Shown: in pieces, positions 51,599 through 63,850 of the stretch
Layout: each line of letters opens with the position of its first letter
Numbering within the stretch: the first letter of the stretch is position 1
Source: Minisyncoccota bacterium
GTDB taxonomy: Bacteria; Patescibacteriota; Minisyncoccia; Phycocordibacterales; UBA6065
Reading direction: 5' to 3'
Length of the DNA: 64,000 nt
Assembly: GCA_041661645.1 (NCBI GenBank)
Contig: JBAZUA010000001.1
Coordinates: 45,618 to 109,617, forward strand
The notes under the pieces: generated by a model
Seen by the model: the letters and a program-made list of their open reading frames with translations, nothing else
What the model was told of the DNA's origin: nothing
Database searches by the model: none
Position numbers and translations under genes: made by a program

Positions 51599-52258
51599 AT
51601 GGCACTCTTCGCGAACGAAAAACTCAACCATAATTTCCATGAGCTGACAGCTCTCGAGAAACTCACCTATCTCCTCTTCGTGCGCCCGAGATGGGACAAG
51701 GAGAGACGATTCTTCTTCGAGGGAAGCTTTACCCTGCCAGGCCAGATGTATATTGCCGACAGAAAAGCCCTTTTCGACACGATTAAGGACGAGAGGCCCT
51801 CGGACTGCTTTGAGATAGGAACCTACACGGGGGGAGGGAGCACCTTCTTCATAACGCAGGCTTTCAAGGCCCTCGAGGCGGGAAAGCTCATCACCCTCGA
51901 GAGCTCGGAGCGCCTGTACAACAAGGCCCTATCTCATTACGCCCGATTCTTCCGCGGGCTCTCCCCTTTCGTGACATTCGTTCACGGGGCTGGATTTGAT
52001 GACCTCAAGCCGTTCATCAGGGACGGCAAAGTCGGGGCGTTCTTCCTCGACGGAGCCGAGGACGGGCAGGAAACCCTTGACCAGTACCTCAAGTTCCTCC
52101 CCTATTGCAGGAAAGGCACGATTCTCATGGCCCATGACTGGAACACCGAGAAGACCCGCCTCCTTCGTCCGGCGATAGAGGAAAATTCACATTGGGAAAA
52201 AATAATCGAGGTGAAGCCTCCGGCGAGCGTTGGCTTCGTCGCGTTCCGATACGTATAA
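51599..52258 (+). CDS. class I SAM-dependent O-methyltransferase (TylF/MycF- or CmcI-like, Methyltransf_24-type)
   Basis: …CFEIGTYTGGGSTFF… SAM-binding loop and …MAHDWN… motif; first gene of the glycan cluster. Confidence 0.6.
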   Translation: MALFANEKLNHNFHELTALEKLTYLLFVRPRWDKERRFFFEGSFTLPGQMYIADRKALFDTIKDERPSDCFEIGTYTGGGSTFFITQAFKALEAGKLITLESSERLYNKALSHYARFFRGLSPFVTFVHGAGFDDLKPFIRDGKVGAFFLDGAEDGQETLDQYLKFLPYCRKGTILMAHDWNTEKTRLLRPAIEENSHWEKIIEVKPPASVGFVAFRYV

Positions 52259-52268
52259 AAACACAGCC

Positions 52269-53801
52269 ATGAACGAACCCTCCCGAACCCACACGGTACT
52301 CAAGAACTCCCTTTTCAGGCTGTTTGGGTTTTTCTTTCCCATCATATTCTCGATAGCCATCACGCCGATTGTTGTTAACAGACTCGGGACCCAGGACTAC
52401 GGACTGATGATATTCATCAACTCCCTGCTCGGCATACTCAGCCTACTCGACATAGGCATCTCCACCGCGACCATAAAGCACCTGGCCGAATACAAAGGAA
52501 GGGGTGATGTCGAGGGAACCGTTCGATCAATCCGCACGGCAAACACCCTCTTCCTCATCATAGGCATCATCGGCATGACCTTGGTTGGACTCACCGTCCT
52601 CGCGACGACGATCTTCTTCGGTGACAAGATAGCGGACAATCCCGAGCTCATCACGATCATGCTCATTGGCGCGGGACTCTTCTTCATAAACTCGATCAAC
52701 AGCGTCTACACCCTCATACCATCGGCCCTTCAGCGATTCGACATAGCCACGGCAATAAACGCCACGAGCCTGACCGTCGGAAGCCTGGCAAACCTGACTG
52801 TCGTCCTCCTTGGCGGCAGGCTCGTGGCGATATTCGTCGTCAACGTCGCGGTCGCAACGCTCTTCTTCTTCGTCTGGAGGAAATATTCGCTCGCGATACT
52901 GCCCGAAGCGAAGTGGAGATTCGCCTGGTCCCCGTCTGAGGTTCGCCGAACGGTTTCCTTCAGCGCCTATGCATCCATAAACGAACTCGCTCGAACGGCG
53001 CTGTTCTCGCTTGACCGTCTGATCATCCCTCTCTATGCGGGCGCATCAAGCCTCACCTATTACACAATTCCAGGGAATCTAACGGCCCGAATAACGGGAG
53101 TATCGGACAATATCGCAGGCACGCTATTTCCCCTTTCGGCGCACCTGAACGCCACCGGAGAGCATGACGCCCTGCGCACGGGCTACGTCAGGTCCTCGCG
53201 CATCATCCTCGTGGTCTCGGCCGCCATCACCGCAGGCATCGCCTTCAATGGGTACGAGATACTGAAATACTGGATAAATCCGGAAGTCGCGGCAAACGGC
53301 GCCTTCGTGATTGTCATCCTGGCCCTGACCAACCTGTGCCTCACCCTCCTCTCGAGCGCCTCGAACCTCTTCATCGTCCTCGGCAAATGGAAGTTCTACA
53401 CCGGCATCTCGGCATCGATGGCCCTCATCAACGTGATTGCCCTCTTCGTCCTCCTCCCTCGATACGGCATCAATGGCGCGGCAATCGCATATCTCATATC
53501 GACGGCTCCCGTCATATACGCCCTCTACGTGCTCGAAAAGAGATATCTCCAGATTCCCGGCAAGACAAGGCGCTGGGTGCTGAACTCCTCGAAAGTGGCC
53601 GTCACCACCATCGTCTTCGCCGTCGCGAACGAGCTCCTCATAAAAGGGAACATCACGAGCCTGGCGAGTCTCATTATCCTCGGACCATCATCCGTCCTGC
53701 TCTGGGTCGCGATCTATTACGCGTTCGGATTCGTGCCAAAAGAGGACAGGGCCGACATCATGAAATTCATAAGAACCCAACTGTCACGGAAAAAGGCCTA
53801 A
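52269..53801 (+). CDS. polysaccharide flippase (Wzx/MOP superfamily)
   Basis: ~12-14 TM helices across 510 aa, typical of 'polysaccharide biosynthesis protein' flippases. Confidence 0.7.
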   Translation: MNEPSRTHTVLKNSLFRLFGFFFPIIFSIAITPIVVNRLGTQDYGLMIFINSLLGILSLLDIGISTATIKHLAEYKGRGDVEGTVRSIRTANTLFLIIGIIGMTLVGLTVLATTIFFGDKIADNPELITIMLIGAGLFFINSINSVYTLIPSALQRFDIATAINATSLTVGSLANLTVVLLGGRLVAIFVVNVAVATLFFFVWRKYSLAILPEAKWRFAWSPSEVRRTVSFSAYASINELARTALFSLDRLIIPLYAGASSLTYYTIPGNLTARITGVSDNIAGTLFPLSAHLNATGEHDALRTGYVRSSRIILVVSAAITAGIAFNGYEILKYWINPEVAANGAFVIVILALTNLCLTLLSSASNLFIVLGKWKFYTGISASMALINVIALFVLLPRYGINGAAIAYLISTAPVIYALYVLEKRYLQIPGKTRRWVLNSSKVAVTTIVFAVANELLIKGNITSLASLIILGPSSVLLWVAIYYAFGFVPKEDRADIMKFIRTQLSRKKA

Positions 53802-62124: not shown

Positions 62125-63062
62125 TAATCGTCAACCTCAAGGGCGGCCTTGGCAATCAGATGTTCCAATACGCATGCGGGAGGGCCCTTTCCCTGCGCGC
62201 CAAGGCCCGCGGCGAGAGCGGCACCCTCAGGCTCGACGCGACCGGCTTCGACCGCGTGAACGCGATGCCGGGCACCGTGACCAGACGCTCCTATGAGCTC
62301 GGCGCCTTCAACGTCCAGGCGCGCCTCGCCACACCCGAGGAGATCAAGTGCGTCAAATATCCCTTCGGCATACTTTCGAAAGCCTGGAGGTACTTCAGCG
62401 CCAAGGGCCTGCGCAAGTTCCACATAGCCTTTGAGGAAAAGACCTTCGGGCACAATGACCGAATCTACCTCGACGGATACTGGCAGACCGAGAAATACTT
62501 CAGGGACCACGAGGCCGCCATCCGAAACGACTTCACCCTGGCCAAGCCGCCGGGAGAGGCCGCCATGCGACAGTTCAAAGCCATTGCCAAGGCACGCCAC
62601 TCGGTGTCGCTTCACATCCGCCGAGGGGACTATGTGACCGACAGCGCAACCGCGGGGCATCACGGCTCCTGCGGCAAGGACTATTACGAAAGGGCCGTCG
62701 TCGAGATGGCACAGATGCTGAACCAGAGGGGGCCATCCAGGGGCGCCCGAGGCAAGGCAAAGGAGGCCGTGGCCATACCGAACATATTCGTCTTCTCGGA
62801 CGACATCGCCTGGGCCAAGGCAAACCTCTCATTTCCCTGCCCCATCTCGTTCGTCTCGTCGCCCGACCTGACGAGCGCCGAAGAGCTCGCCCTCATGTCA
62901 TCCTGCAAGCACCACGTCATCGCCAACTCCACCTTCAGCTGGTGGGGCGCATGGCTCGGCCAGAACGCCGACAAGATAGTCATGGCGCCGAAGCGCTGGG
63001 CACAGGAGCACGACGAGGACTGGTATGCGGACATAATCCCCGAATCATGGATACGAATCTAA
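62121..63062 (+). CDS. alpha-1,2-fucosyltransferase (GT11)
   Basis: MIIVNLKGGLGNQMFQYACGRAL (GT11 motif I); …SLHIRRGDY… (motif II); …HVIANSTFSWWGAWL… (motif IV). Confidence 0.8.
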   Translation: MIIVNLKGGLGNQMFQYACGRALSLRAKARGESGTLRLDATGFDRVNAMPGTVTRRSYELGAFNVQARLATPEEIKCVKYPFGILSKAWRYFSAKGLRKFHIAFEEKTFGHNDRIYLDGYWQTEKYFRDHEAAIRNDFTLAKPPGEAAMRQFKAIAKARHSVSLHIRRGDYVTDSATAGHHGSCGKDYYERAVVEMAQMLNQRGPSRGARGKAKEAVAIPNIFVFSDDIAWAKANLSFPCPISFVSSPDLTSAEELALMSSCKHHVIANSTFSWWGAWLGQNADKIVMAPKRWAQEHDEDWYADIIPESWIRI

Positions 63063-63850
63063 ATGCATCAAAGCCCGCCACGGGCGCACAGGCACCCCTC
63101 GTCACCATACTGGTGGCGACCTACAATCGCGCCCACTACATCGGCGAGGCCGTGGCGAGCGCCCAGAAACAGACCTTCCAGAACTGGGAGCTCATCATCC
63201 TCGATGACGCCTCGACAGACGGCACCGAGACGATCGCCCGCGACATGGCGGCGCGGGACTCCCGCATAGCCTATGTCAGGCATCCGCAGAACAAGGGCAT
63301 CGCGGGCAACAGGAATGCCGGACTCGCCCTCGCCAAGGGCACTTACATCGCCGTCCTCGACAGCGACGATGTCTGGACGGCCCCGACCAAGCTCGAAAGG
63401 CAAGTCGCCTATCTCGCATCAAATCCCGCCTGTGTTGCCGTCGGCACGCAGGTGTCAGTGATCGACGAGAACGGCGCGCGAACTGGATCAATATCATACG
63501 AGACCACTGATGCGGGCATACGCGCCCATTTCCTGCGCCGTAACCAGTTCGCCCAGTCGAGCATCATGTATCGTCTCTCCGCTGCCCAGGCCGTGGGCGG
63601 ATACGACCCAGCCTGGACCGTAAACGACGACTATGACCTCTGGCTTAAGATGGGCTCTCAGGGAACCTTTGCCAACCTTTCCGAGGAAATGGCGGCATAT
63701 CGCGAGCATACAGGCGGCATAACCAAGACCAAGCGCCTCAAGGCGGCCATCGAGCACCTGCGCATAATTAAAAAGCACGGGAAGCAGTATCCAAACTACG
63801 TTCCCGCGCTCTTCAAATCCTATCTGCGAATCCTGAGGGCGACTATCTAA
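63047..63850 (+). CDS. family 2 glycosyltransferase (GT-A)
   Basis: …LVTILVATYNRAHYIGEAVASAQKQTFQNWELIILDDASTDGT…VLDSDD…; the ORF's 5' extension overlaps the fucosyltransferase gene. Confidence 0.8.
   Translation: MDTNLNASKPATGAQAPLVTILVATYNRAHYIGEAVASAQKQTFQNWELIILDDASTDGTETIARDMAARDSRIAYVRHPQNKGIAGNRNAGLALAKGTYIAVLDSDDVWTAPTKLERQVAYLASNPACVAVGTQVSVIDENGARTGSISYETTDAGIRAHFLRRNQFAQSSIMYRLSAAQAVGGYDPAWTVNDDYDLWLKMGSQGTFANLSEEMAAYREHTGGITKTKRLKAAIEHLRIIKKHGKQYPNYVPALFKSYLRILRATI

What the first reader, a model, noticed from the sequence alone, without database searches (positions are those of the whole stretch)
51599..63850. Glycan biosynthesis cluster predicting a heavily methylated, fucosylated glycan: GT11 fucosyltransferase, GT13-like, GT2 x2, GT4, Wzx flippase and five methyltransferases
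Twelve co-directional, often overlapping genes encode the following. There is one TylF/CmcI-like O-methyltransferase, two FkbM-family methyltransferases and two generic class-I SAM methyltransferases. There is a Wzx flippase. There is an alpha-1,2-fucosyltransferase with all the GT11 motifs (MIIVNLKGGLGNQMFQY…HIRRGDY…). There is an enzyme with GT13 (GnT-I)-like motifs (EDDCIP…DFF), two GT2 enzymes and a GT4 enzyme. Two further putative glycosyltransferases are of uncertain family. Five methyltransferases for about seven glycosyltransferases is an unusual ratio. It points to O-methylated deoxyhexoses such as methyl-fucose. GT13-like and exostosin-like enzymes are rare in bacteria. No initiating phosphoglycosyltransferase, polymerase, ligase or oligosaccharyltransferase lies within the window. 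So the target (LPS-like lipid, S-layer, pilin-like adhesin glycosylation) is open. The cluster likely extends past 64000, and a convergent gene ends at 63848.
Basis: partly seen in the sequence, partly recalled or inferred. Interest (0 to 1): 0.6.

Follow-up and report, generated by a model that had tools for sequence, protein, structure and literature searches.

The report
Accessory surface-glycan gene island in Paceibacterota
A 12-kb operon in an uncultured ultra-small (CPR/Paceibacterota) bacterium encodes a flippase, seven sugar transferases and five methyltransferases that most likely build a fucose-containing, methylated cell-surface oligosaccharide; it is a real, strain-variable but conventional kind of glycan locus built partly from little-studied enzyme families.

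Summary
13 tightly packed + strand genes (51599-63850) encode 5 SAM methyltransferases, a Wzx-type flippase, GT11, GT4, two GT2 enzymes and three less ordinary transferases.

- The 'exostosin-like' gene is a GT114 enzyme. It is a homologue of the chlorovirus xylosyltransferase A075L and keeps its catalytic residues.
- The 'GT13-like' call is supported by fold, but not by the Pfam GNT-I model.
- One 'uncertain GT' is DUF6492. It has a GT-A fold whose nearest solved neighbours are Stealth hexose-1-phosphate transferases, with no sequence-level membership.
- Neither the GT13-like nor the GT114 family is rare; each has thousands of homologues.
- The cluster does not run past 64000. It ends at the last GT2, against a convergent YscW-like gene, as in three syntenic relatives.

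The host is a Candidatus Paceibacterota MAG. The cluster is an accessory island. Relatives with the same backbone carry mosaic variants of it, one with Gmd and Fcl adjacent, or no glycan genes at all. A GT114 + GT2 + DUF6492 + GT11 + GT2 module recurs across Paceibacteria, as gene fusions, and beside GT114 in viral contigs.

No initiating transferase, polymerase or ligase lies in the window. Six related loci have an adjacent Wzy_C-TPR membrane protein.

Verdict: a new member of a known kind, of moderate interest.

The parts
51599..52258 (+). g1: class I SAM methyltransferase (Methyltransf_24), 219 aa
   Evidence: Pfam PF13578 E=4.8e-12. No NCBIfam or PDB relative. Homologues at 48-56% identity sit in 6 other CPR clusters and beside GT114 in 4 viral loci.
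52269..53801 (+). g2: Wzx-type flippase, 510 aa (an alternative TTG start lies at 52230)
   Evidence: Pfam Polysacc_synt_3 E=7.8e-16. Many TM-like segments; the only polytopic protein of the cluster. It is fused to a GT114 domain in P0217 (85% identity) and P0248.
53817..54689 (+). g3: GT114-family inverting glycosyltransferase (A075L-like), 290 aa
   Evidence: phmmer E=7e-20 to PBCV-1 A075L structures 8asa/8avq/8q8i. The catalytic residues D73/R158/N202/R208 are conserved as D90/R168/N209/R215; the donor contact N148 is Ala158. The family is defined in PMC11571054.
54676..55503 (+). g4: class I SAM methyltransferase (Methyltransf_23), 275 aa
   Evidence: Pfam PF13489 E=3.1e-18. No equivalog.
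55508..56671 (+). g5: GT2 glycosyltransferase with a C-terminal extension, 387 aa
   Evidence: Pfam PF00535 E=2.3e-33. It is fused to DUF6492 in L004/L005 and L006. Single long ORFs in about seven other CPR loci also span both.
56668..57576 (+). g6: DUF6492 protein with a GT-A fold closest to Stealth hexose-1-phosphate transferases, 302 aa
57585..58487 (+). g7: GT13-like GT-A glycosyltransferase, 300 aa
58497..59252 (+). g8: FkbM-family methyltransferase, 251 aa (L001 calls the start at 58524)
   Evidence: PF05050 E=6.9e-22. TIGR01444 91.5 bits against a cut-off of 37.7.
59271..60002 (+). g9: class I SAM methyltransferase (Methyltransf_11) with a C-terminal hydrophobic segment, 243 aa
   Evidence: PF08241 E=1e-15. 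TM-like segment at residues 202-229.
59999..61198 (+). g10: GT4 (GT-B, retaining family) glycosyltransferase, 399 aa
   Evidence: PF13692, PF00534 and PF13439 hits.
61195..62124 (+). g11: FkbM-family methyltransferase, 309 aa
   Evidence: PF05050 E=1.2e-15. TIGR01444 89.4 bits.
62121..63062 (+). g12: GT11 fucosyltransferase, 313 aa
   Evidence: PF01531 96.9 bits against a cut-off of 23.9. HIRRGDY and GGLGNQMFQY motifs. Fused GT11-GT2-GT114 in P0291.
63047..63850 (+). g13: GT2 glycosyltransferase, 267 aa; last gene of the cluster
   Evidence: PF00535 E=1.4e-38. g13-like GT2 domains are fused to GT114 in P0241, P0296 and P0324. The cluster ends here in L003, L004 and L006 too.
51397..51597 (+). 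g0: conserved 66-aa lineage-specific ORF. It is a flank marker of the variable site, not part of the glycan machinery.
   Evidence: 86-87% identical in L003 and L004, at the level of the flanking RmuC. Only 54 homologues, and the few that carry a source name are Paceibacterota or Taylorbacteria. It is present in L087-L089, where no glycan cluster follows.
63843..64000 (-). 3' end of a convergent YscW-family gene; downstream boundary of the island
   Evidence: L001 gene call with PF09619. The reading frame ends in a stop at about 63843. The same neighbour follows the cluster in L003, L004 and L006.

Best explanation
The region is an accessory, strain-variable genomic island in a Candidatus Paceibacterota (CPR) genome. 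It most likely encodes the cytoplasmic, Wzx-dependent assembly of a short, fucose-containing, multiply O-methylated hetero-oligosaccharide on a lipid carrier.

Inferred mechanism:
1. An initiating transferase encoded elsewhere primes a polyprenyl phosphate.
2. Seven nucleotide-sugar transferases extend the chain. They are GT4 g10, GT2 g5 and g13, GT13-like g7, DUF6492 g6, GT11 g12 and GT114 g3.
3. GT11 adds L-fucose from GDP-fucose.
4. GT114, by analogy with A075L, adds a sugar to that fucose-containing branch. The donor is possibly, but not demonstrably, UDP-xylose.
5. Up to five SAM methyltransferases O-methylate the sugars.
6. Wzx flips the finished unit.
7. A Wzy_C-family membrane enzyme or another transferase outside the window attaches it to a surface acceptor (protein, wall or lipid) or polymerises it.

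Shown: the gene families, the operon organisation, the catalytic-residue conservation in GT114, the folds of g6 and g7, the synteny and variability, the gene fusions and the recurrence of the module.

Inferred: the sugars, the linkages, the methylation targets, the lipid carrier and the acceptor.
For: Families and organisation:
- The genes are tightly packed, with no internal + strand terminator-like site.
- Only g2 is polytopic. It is a Wzx-family protein, and no Wzy-like protein is in the cluster.

Functional coupling from fusions:
- Wzx-GT114: P0217 and P0248.
- GT2-GT114: P0241, P0296 and P0324.
- GT11-GT2-GT114: P0291.
- GT2-DUF6492: called genes in L004/L005 and L006, and single ORFs in other CPR loci.

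Sugar precursors near homologous clusters:
- Gmd scores 558 bits against a 415-bit cut-off, and Fcl 478 bits against a 500-bit cut-off, next to the L004 cluster.
- There are 12 GDP-Man-dehydratase/epimerase ORFs and one UDP-glucose dehydrogenase among the extra genes of 13 other CPR loci.

GT114 and late steps:
- The GT114 catalytic residues are conserved.
- Wzy_C-TPR proteins with about 12 TM-like segments lie next to the homologous cluster in 6 of those 13 loci.

Accessory-island status:
- The same RmuC-YqeY-g0 backbone carries mosaic variants in L003, L004 and L006.
- It carries no glycan cluster in L087-L089.
- GC3 of g3-g7 is 0.63-0.67, against 0.79 +/- 0.03 for housekeeping genes.

Closest precedent: the characterised Tannerella forsythia O-glycosylation cluster has the same architecture. 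It has wzx, 5 Gtfs and 3 Mtfs, its glycan contains Fuc, Xyl and methylated sugars, and it lists neither an initiating transferase nor an oligosaccharyltransferase (PMC6120980).
Against: - No initiating phosphoglycosyltransferase, polymerase, ligase or oligosaccharyltransferase lies in the 64-kb window.
- No GDP-fucose or UDP-xylose synthesis genes are in the window either, so substrate supply in this organism is unverified.
- None of the five methyltransferases has a characterised close homologue, so a sugar substrate rests on context only.
- The GT114 donor-contact residue N148 is not conserved (Ala158).
- g6 may not be a glycosyltransferase at all.
- CPR envelope chemistry is essentially unknown, and no paper in the library links Parcubacteria with fucosyltransferases.
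Confidence: 0.72

Rival explanations
1. The cluster makes the repeat unit of a polymer (capsule, EPS or a secondary cell-wall polysaccharide). A Wzy polymerase encoded elsewhere polymerises it, and it is anchored to peptidoglycan or released, rather than being a single oligosaccharide transferred en bloc to proteins.
For: - Wzx is present.
- Wzy_C-family proteins, a family that includes polymerases, sit next to homologous clusters in 6 CPR loci.
- g13 and g5 give their best NCBIfam similarities to teichuronic-acid and EPS GT2 enzymes (TuaG, EpsE), although far below cut-off.
Against: - No Wzy, chain-length regulator, export or LCP gene lies in the cluster, in the window, or in the +/-10-kb flanks of the syntenic relatives.
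- Seven transferases for one repeat unit would be large.
- The Wzy_C + TPR architecture is equally compatible with a ligase or an O-oligosaccharyltransferase.
Confidence: 0.3
2. DUF6492 (g6) is a Stealth-like hexose-1-phosphate transferase. The product would then contain a phosphodiester-linked sugar, in a teichoic-acid-like or mannose-6-phosphate-tag-like linkage, and would not be an all-glycosidic oligosaccharide.
For: - Foldseek independently ranks CpsY first (E=2.4e-10, TM 0.57/0.65).
- The model is high confidence (pLDDT 95).
Against: - There is no Stealth Pfam hit.
- A profile search of the PDB does not find CpsY.
- hhalign of DUF6492 against a Stealth alignment gives 6% probability.
- I saw no counterpart of the Stealth CR4 CLND/CIND tetrapeptide in g6, and the CR1 IDVVYTF motif is only loosely resembled. 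The motifs are defined in PMC10668966.
- The next Foldseek hits are retaining GT8-like glycosyltransferases (LARGE1, XXYLT1, glycogenin) with similar scores.
Confidence: 0.3
3. Some or all of the five methyltransferases do not methylate the glycan. They might act on the lipid carrier, a protein or a small molecule, or be inactive. The predicted 'heavily methylated' glycan would then be overstated.
For: - No methyltransferase has a characterised sugar-methylating homologue.
- The generic Methyltransf_11 and Methyltransf_23 domains also occur in UbiG- and BioC-type enzymes.
- In T. forsythia, three Mtfs account for only two methyl groups (PMC6120980).
Against: - All five are interleaved with the transferase genes, and three of them overlap a neighbouring gene.
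- FkbM, Methyltransf_23 and Methyltransf_24 genes recur inside homologous clusters across Paceibacteria.
- Methyltransf_24 lies directly next to GT114 in viral loci.
Confidence: 0.2

Closest known systems
Bacteroidota general protein O-glycosylation loci (Tannerella forsythia 27-kb cluster; Bacteroides lfg-type loci)
   Same: - A polycistronic cluster with one wzx, several Gtfs and several methyltransferases (5 Gtfs and 3 Mtfs in T. forsythia).
- The T. forsythia glycan contains Fuc, Xyl and O-methyl sugars.
- That cluster lists neither an initiating transferase nor an oligosaccharyltransferase.
- Gene content varies between strains (PMC6120980).
   Different: - The host phylum differs (CPR, apparently without an outer membrane).
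- There are no nonulosonic-acid genes.
- The enzyme families differ: GT114, DUF6492, GT13-like and FkbM.
- The acceptor is unknown, and a Bacteroidota-style glycosylation motif was not tested.
- No orthology to the Tannerella genes was shown.
Chlorovirus PBCV-1 capsid N-glycan machinery (A075L, the founding member of GT114)
   Same: - g3 is a sequence homologue of A075L (E=7e-20) and keeps the catalytic Asp/Arg/Asn/Arg set.
- A075L acts on a fucose-centred core (PMC11571054). PBCV-1 glycans also carry methylated sugars (my own knowledge, not checked here).
- Here GT114 travels with a fucosyltransferase and methyltransferases.
- GT114 co-occurs with GT11, DUF6492 and Methyltransf_24 in viral contigs too.
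   Different: - The viral enzymes are described as soluble and glycosylate a capsid protein; no flippase step is described for them. Here a Wzx is present and is even fused to GT114 in relatives.
- The donor-contact residue N148 is not conserved.
- No homology of the other cluster genes to PBCV-1 genes was tested.
Wzx/Wzy-dependent O-antigen and capsule loci of Gram-negative bacteria
   Same: - A variable, mosaic glycan gene cluster at a fixed chromosomal site between conserved flanks.
- GC3 differs from the core genome.
- Wzx plus a GT11 fucosyltransferase, as in fucose-containing E. coli O-antigens (the latter from established knowledge).
   Different: - No Wzy, Wzz or WaaL and no sugar-nucleotide genes lie in the locus or the window.
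- Lipid A-core is not expected in CPR (general knowledge, not tested here).
- The methyltransferase load is far higher.
Stealth hexose-1-phosphate transferases (CpsY, GNPTAB, meningococcal capsule polymerases)
   Same: They are the nearest solved folds to g6 (DUF6492) by two methods.
   Different: - There is no detectable sequence relationship.
- The CR4 motif is absent.
- The function of g6 is untested.

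Membership tests
CAZy GT11 (g12) | Match to the family model above its curated threshold | tested here: met
   PF01531 scores 96.9 bits against a cut-off of 23.9, E=1.7e-27.
CAZy GT11 (g12) | Conserved GDP-fucose-binding motif HxRRGDY and the N-terminal GGLGNQMFQY motif | tested here: met
   HIRRGDY and MIIVNLKGGLGNQMFQY can be read in the translation. That these motifs define the family rests on my own knowledge.
CAZy GT11 (g12) | alpha-1,2 (or alpha-1,3) transfer of L-fucose from GDP-fucose | not testable with these tools
   Only indirect support: Gmd and Fcl lie next to the homologous cluster in L004. None is in the window.
CAZy GT13 / GNT-I (g7) | Match to the Pfam GNT-I model PF03071 | tested here: not met
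   The window protein has no hit at E<=1. 13 of 34 homologues hit weakly, best E=3.5e-6. A profile search of the PDB gives no hit.
CAZy GT13 / GNT-I (g7) | GT-A fold closest to GnT-I and POMGnT1 | tested here: met
CAZy GT13 / GNT-I (g7) | EDD metal/nucleotide-binding motif | tested here: met
   E99-D100-D101 are invariant in 34 sequences.
CAZy GT114 (g3) | Sequence homology to the founding member A075L | tested here: met
   phmmer E=7.3e-20 over residues 78-279.
CAZy GT114 (g3) | Catalytic base Asp73, Arg158 and Arg208, and the inter-domain Asn202 | tested here: met
   They are conserved as D90, R168, R215 and N209, across all or nearly all of 14 aligned sequences. Their roles come from PMC11571054.
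CAZy GT114 (g3) | UDP-xylose donor contact Asn148, i.e. beta-xylosyltransferase specificity | tested here: not met
   The position is Ala158 in g3 and is variable in the family. The donor sugar is therefore open.
CAZy GT47 / exostosin (g3) | Match to PF03016 above threshold | tested here: not met
   21.4 bits against a cut-off of 33.4. A075L itself was reclassified out of GT47.
Stealth hexose-1-phosphate transferases (g6) | Sequence membership: CR1-CR4, IDVVYTF and CLND motifs | tested here: not met
   DUF6492 is the only Pfam family hit. hhalign probability is 6%. I saw no CLND. The motifs are defined in PMC10668966.
Stealth hexose-1-phosphate transferases (g6) | Fold of the catalytic domain | tested here: met
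Wzx flippase (g2) | Polysaccharide-biosynthesis (MOP-type) family match and polytopic topology | tested here: met
   PF13440 scores 58.6 bits against a cut-off of 23. Hydropathy shows many TM-like segments.
Complete Wzx/Wzy-dependent pathway | Initiating phosphoglycosyltransferase, Wzy polymerase, chain-length regulator or ligase in or near the locus | tested here: not met
   None was found in the window or in the +/-10-kb flanks of L003, L004 and L006. Wzy_C-TPR proteins occur only in more distant CPR loci.
FkbM methyltransferases (g8, g11) | Match to PF05050 and TIGR01444 above threshold | tested here: met
TylF / CmcI O-methyltransferases (g1) | Match to the TylF or CmcI models | tested here: not met
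   Only Methyltransf_24 (PF13578) is reported at E<=0.01. No NCBIfam or PDB relative was found.

The most novel reading that the evidence does not exclude
Paceibacteria and many viruses share a portable 'fucose-core' glycan toolkit: GT11, GT2, GT114 and DUF6492, with Methyltransf_24 and FkbM methyltransferases. It would build a chlorovirus-like, fucose-centred, O-methylated oligosaccharide. Within it, DUF6492 would be a previously unrecognised, sequence-divergent branch of the Stealth sugar-1-phosphate transferases. The island would then be the first bacterial handle on PBCV-1-type glycans and on the surface chemistry that CPR cells present to their hosts and phages.
Probability: 0.15. Interest if true: 0.65.

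Novelty: new member of a known kind. Interest (0 to 1): 0.4.

Why it matters
Nothing is known experimentally about the surface glycans of Paceibacterota or other CPR bacteria. These cells are thought to live attached to, or dependent on, other cells, so their surface chemistry is central to their biology.

What this locus offers:
- A concrete, testable enzyme set of small, mostly soluble proteins.
- Evidence that the glycan is strain-variable, which is what would be expected of a structure under phage or host selection.
- A link between the recently defined virus-derived family GT114 and a bacterial Wzx pathway.
- Functional context for two large uncharacterised families: DUF6492 and the bacterial GT13-like 'nucleotide-diphospho-sugar transferases'.

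It does not reveal a new kind of pathway.

Tried and rejected
- Rfam and tRNA scans of the window found nothing.
- PDB sequence searches for g7, g6, g12, g1, g8 and g11 gave no informative relatives.
- NCBIfam gave no equivalog for any cluster protein.
- The window's own 263-kb contig could not be read beyond the window. Look-ups returned only short identical contigs. I therefore could not search the genome for an initiating transferase, a ligase or Gmd/Fcl.
- I first treated the 66-aa ORF g0 as the first gene of the operon. I rejected this because it is conserved at flank level, and it is present in three relatives that lack the cluster.
- Stealth membership of DUF6492 by sequence is rejected.
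- A wholesale HGT signature is rejected. Overall GC is like the rest of the window, and only the g3-g7 block has a low GC3.
- Literature searches for DUF6492, for Patescibacteria or Parcubacteria glycosylation, and for NoeI fucose methylation returned nothing usable.
- A tblastn match of the antisense ORF 49186-49911 to relatives is an artefact. The real gene there is YqeY, on the + strand at 49199-49651.

Full report
**1. Observation**

Gaps are at most 18 nt and there are six overlaps of 4-16 nt. No + strand terminator-like site lies inside the block. A weak promoter-like site lies at 51327-51356.

Pfam confirms the inventory:
- Five methyltransferases: Methyltransf_24 (g1), Methyltransf_23 (g4), FkbM (g8), Methyltransf_11 (g9) and FkbM (g11).
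- A Polysacc_synt_3, Wzx-like protein (g2). It is the only polytopic protein of the cluster.
- GT2 (g5, g13), GT4 (g10) and GT11 (g12, 96.9 bits against a cut-off of 23.9).
- The quoted motifs are visible in the translations.

An independent 8.4-kb assembly from another run carries g5-g13 with identical proteins (L001).

The convergent gene at the end is a YscW-family gene whose stop lies at about 63843.

**2. Organism and context**

The exact g7 and g6 proteins are on record from a 263-kb contig that NCBI names 'MAG: Candidatus Paceibacterota bacterium'. The rest of the window is housekeeping:
- aminoacyl-tRNA synthetases, ScpA/B, FtsW, MurG and DnaB;
- transketolase, GAPDH and RmuC;
- three type IV pilin-like proteins with lectin-type domains.

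No tRNA or Rfam hit was found. No initiating phosphoglycosyltransferase, Wzy, ligase or oligosaccharyltransferase was found in the window.

**3. The three non-standard transferases**

It matches the solved chlorovirus PBCV-1 protein A075L at E=7e-20.

A075L is a beta-xylosyltransferase that puts xylose on O-4 of the fucose in the capsid N-glycan core. It was removed from GT47 and founded CAZy family GT114 (PMC11571054).

The A075L residues Asp73, Arg158, Asn202 and Arg208 are conserved in g3 as D90, R168, N209 and R215. The UDP-xylose contact Asn148 is Ala158 and varies in the family. So g3 is a GT114 enzyme of open donor specificity.

13 of 34 aligned homologues weakly hit GNT-I.

At sequence level there is no relationship. 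There is no Stealth Pfam hit and no PDB profile hit. hhalign against a Stealth alignment, built from sequences printed, gives 6% probability. I saw no CR4 CLND motif; the motif definitions come from PMC10668966. g6 is thus either a retaining GT-A glycosyltransferase or a divergent sugar-phosphate transferase.

*Abundance.* Neither family is rare. g7 has at least 7,916 homologues. g3 has 6,264 representatives of 50%-identity clusters at E<=1e-3.

**4. Comparative genomics**

*Syntenic relatives.* They share the backbone RmuC - YqeY - small ORFs - g0 ... YscW - M48 peptidase - LemA or Mur ligase.
- L003 (g7 69% identical) has the same gene set, with g1 moved and g6 replaced.
- L004 and L005 (60%) lack several methyltransferases and fuse GT2 to DUF6492. 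They have Gmd directly upstream (TIGR01472, 558 bits against a cut-off of 415). They also have Fcl (478 bits against a cut-off of 500).
- L006 (60%) adds UDP-galactopyranose mutase and a DUF268-type methyltransferase.

*Mosaicism.* Against L003, RmuC is 90% identical and g8-g10 are 81-88%. g2-g4 are only 58-61% and g5 is 39%. GC3 of g3-g7 is 0.63-0.67, against 0.79 +/- 0.03 for housekeeping genes.

*The flank gene g0.* The 66-aa ORF at 51397-51597 is conserved at flank level (86-87%). It has only 54 homologues. The few that carry a source name are Paceibacterota or Taylorbacteria.

*Relatives without the cluster.* In L087-L089 the same backbone contains g0 but no glycan cluster. Copper-resistance or other genes sit there instead.

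The cluster is therefore an accessory island at a variable site. In every syntenic relative it ends at the g13 homologue, so it does not extend past 64000.

**5. A recurring module**

A genome-collection scan with DUF6492 returned loci from Kaiser-, Yonath-, Taylor- and Vogelbacteria. It also returned MAGs labelled Saccharibacteria and Gracilibacteria. In these loci GT114, g5-type GT2, DUF6492, GT11 and g13-type GT2 co-occur, often with Methyltransf_24, g7, GT4 and FkbM.

In cultured Paenibacillus and Bacteroidales genomes DUF6492 occurs without most of the other cluster genes.

Gene fusions tie the parts together:
- Wzx-GT114: P0217, whose Wzx part is 85% identical to g2, and P0248.
- GT2-GT114: P0241, P0296 and P0324.
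- GT11-GT2-GT114: P0291.
- GT2-DUF6492: called genes in L004/L005 and L006, and single long ORFs in several other loci.

GT114 relatives are also abundant in viral contigs, with at least 588 found. Among the best 80 loci, 11 carry a GT11 homologue within 10 kb, 10 carry DUF6492 and 4 carry Methyltransf_24. These are often adjacent to GT114.

**6. Missing steps**

I scanned 108 non-cluster ORFs from 13 CPR loci.
- The commonest families were GDP-mannose dehydratase/epimerase (12 ORFs), GT4-type transferases and methyltransferases.
- Nucleotidyltransferases and one UDP-glucose dehydrogenase were also present.
- Three Wzy_C proteins turned up. They are 689-794-aa proteins with about 12 TM-like segments and C-terminal TPR repeats, next to the cluster.
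- tblastn finds the same protein in six of the 13 loci, but not in the window.

This protein is the best candidate for the ligase, O-oligosaccharyltransferase or polymerase step. Whether the window's organism has one is unknown, because its contig could not be read beyond the window.

**7. Mechanism**

The most likely reading (confidence about 0.7) is Wzx-dependent assembly of a short, fucose-containing, multiply O-methylated hetero-oligosaccharide on a lipid carrier.
- Initiation and final transfer are encoded elsewhere.
- GT11 adds fucose.
- GT114 decorates the fucose-bearing branch.
- The methyltransferases act on the lipid-linked intermediate at the cytoplasmic face. g9 has a C-terminal hydrophobic segment.

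The nearest characterised analogue in architecture is the Tannerella forsythia general protein O-glycosylation cluster. It has wzx, five Gtfs and three Mtfs. Its glycan contains Fuc, Xyl and methylated sugars. The cluster lists neither an initiating transferase nor an oligosaccharyltransferase (PMC6120980).

Three things remain inference:
- the methyl acceptors, since no methyltransferase has a characterised close relative;
- the donor sugars;
- the final acceptor.

**8. Verdict**

The finding is real and largely well described. It is a new member of a known kind of system, not a new kind. A ratio of five methyltransferases to seven transferases is high but has precedents.

The added value lies in five points:
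- the CPR host;
- the accessory-island behaviour;
- the GT114 link to giant-virus glycobiology;
- the Stealth-like fold of DUF6492;
- the recurrent fused module.

Interest 0.4.

Noticed in passing
window 51397-51597 (+): A 66-aa ORF with no Pfam or NCBIfam match. It is 62-93% identical across only 54 homologues, and the few that carry a source name are Paceibacterota or Taylorbacteria. It is far more conserved than the glycan genes beside it. It marks the upstream edge of a variable insertion site. In L087-L089 that site holds copper-resistance or other genes instead of a glycan cluster.
   Followed up: yes
window 26792-29209 (both strands): Three adjacent type IV pilin-like proteins with an N-terminal methylation motif. 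They carry Laminin_G_3 (concanavalin-like lectin) or Lcl_C/adhesion domains. They are possible adhesins and candidate glycosylation targets. Similar pairs sit next to RmuC in the relative L088.
   Followed up: partly
L010:33-2405, L013:6607-8676, L014:11705-14089 (also L008, L012, L018): Large Wzy_C (O-antigen-ligase family) proteins with about 12 TM-like segments and C-terminal TPR repeats. They lie directly beside the homologous glycan clusters in six CPR genomes and are absent from the window. They are candidates for the missing ligase, oligosaccharyltransferase or polymerase.
   Followed up: partly
window 53817-58487: Genes g3-g7 have a GC3 of 0.63-0.67, against 0.79 +/- 0.03 for housekeeping genes in the window. 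g11-g13 look like the core genome. Together with the uneven identity to L003 (39-61% against 70-88%), this points to recombinational replacement of part of the island.
   Followed up: partly
window 48426-49157 (-): A DUF3800 gene lies between RmuC and YqeY in the window. Relatives have no such gene there: L003 has only a 137-aa ORF with no Pfam hit, and L004, L087 and L089 have nothing called between the two. This is another small lineage-specific insertion.
   Followed up: no
L008, L011, L012, L017, L022 (ORFs next to the g13 or g12 homologue): A TrwB/TraG/VirD4-like coupling-protein ATPase (DUF87, TraG-D_C) flanks the homologous glycan cluster in five CPR genomes. Its significance is unknown.
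   Followed up: no
L087:1-5089 and L089:1-5804: Giant proteins lie a few genes upstream of the RmuC flank in relatives. One is 7,920 aa with LVIVD repeats and Peptidase_S74; the other is 6,901 aa with no Pfam hit. They are probably surface proteins. No counterpart was seen in the window.
   Followed up: no
L092, L098, L101, L110, L113, L128, L129, L133, L134, L139, L148 (IMG/VR viral contigs): Viral contigs, including giant-virus MAGs, carry GT114 genes next to homologues of other cluster genes. Depending on the locus these are DUF6492, GT11 or Methyltransf_24. Some lie within a few hundred bases of GT114 and others a few kb away.
   Followed up: partly
window 60053-61231 (-): A 392-aa antisense ORF lies opposite the GT4 gene g10, and other long antisense ORFs occur elsewhere (for example 49186-49911 opposite YqeY). 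They look like by-products of the high GC3 rather than genes. One of them produced a misleading tblastn match.
   Followed up: partly
P0298 (hit): A 4,622-aa highly repetitive predicted 'protein' matched g3 in 45 short stretches. It looks like a translated DNA repeat, not a relative.
   Followed up: no
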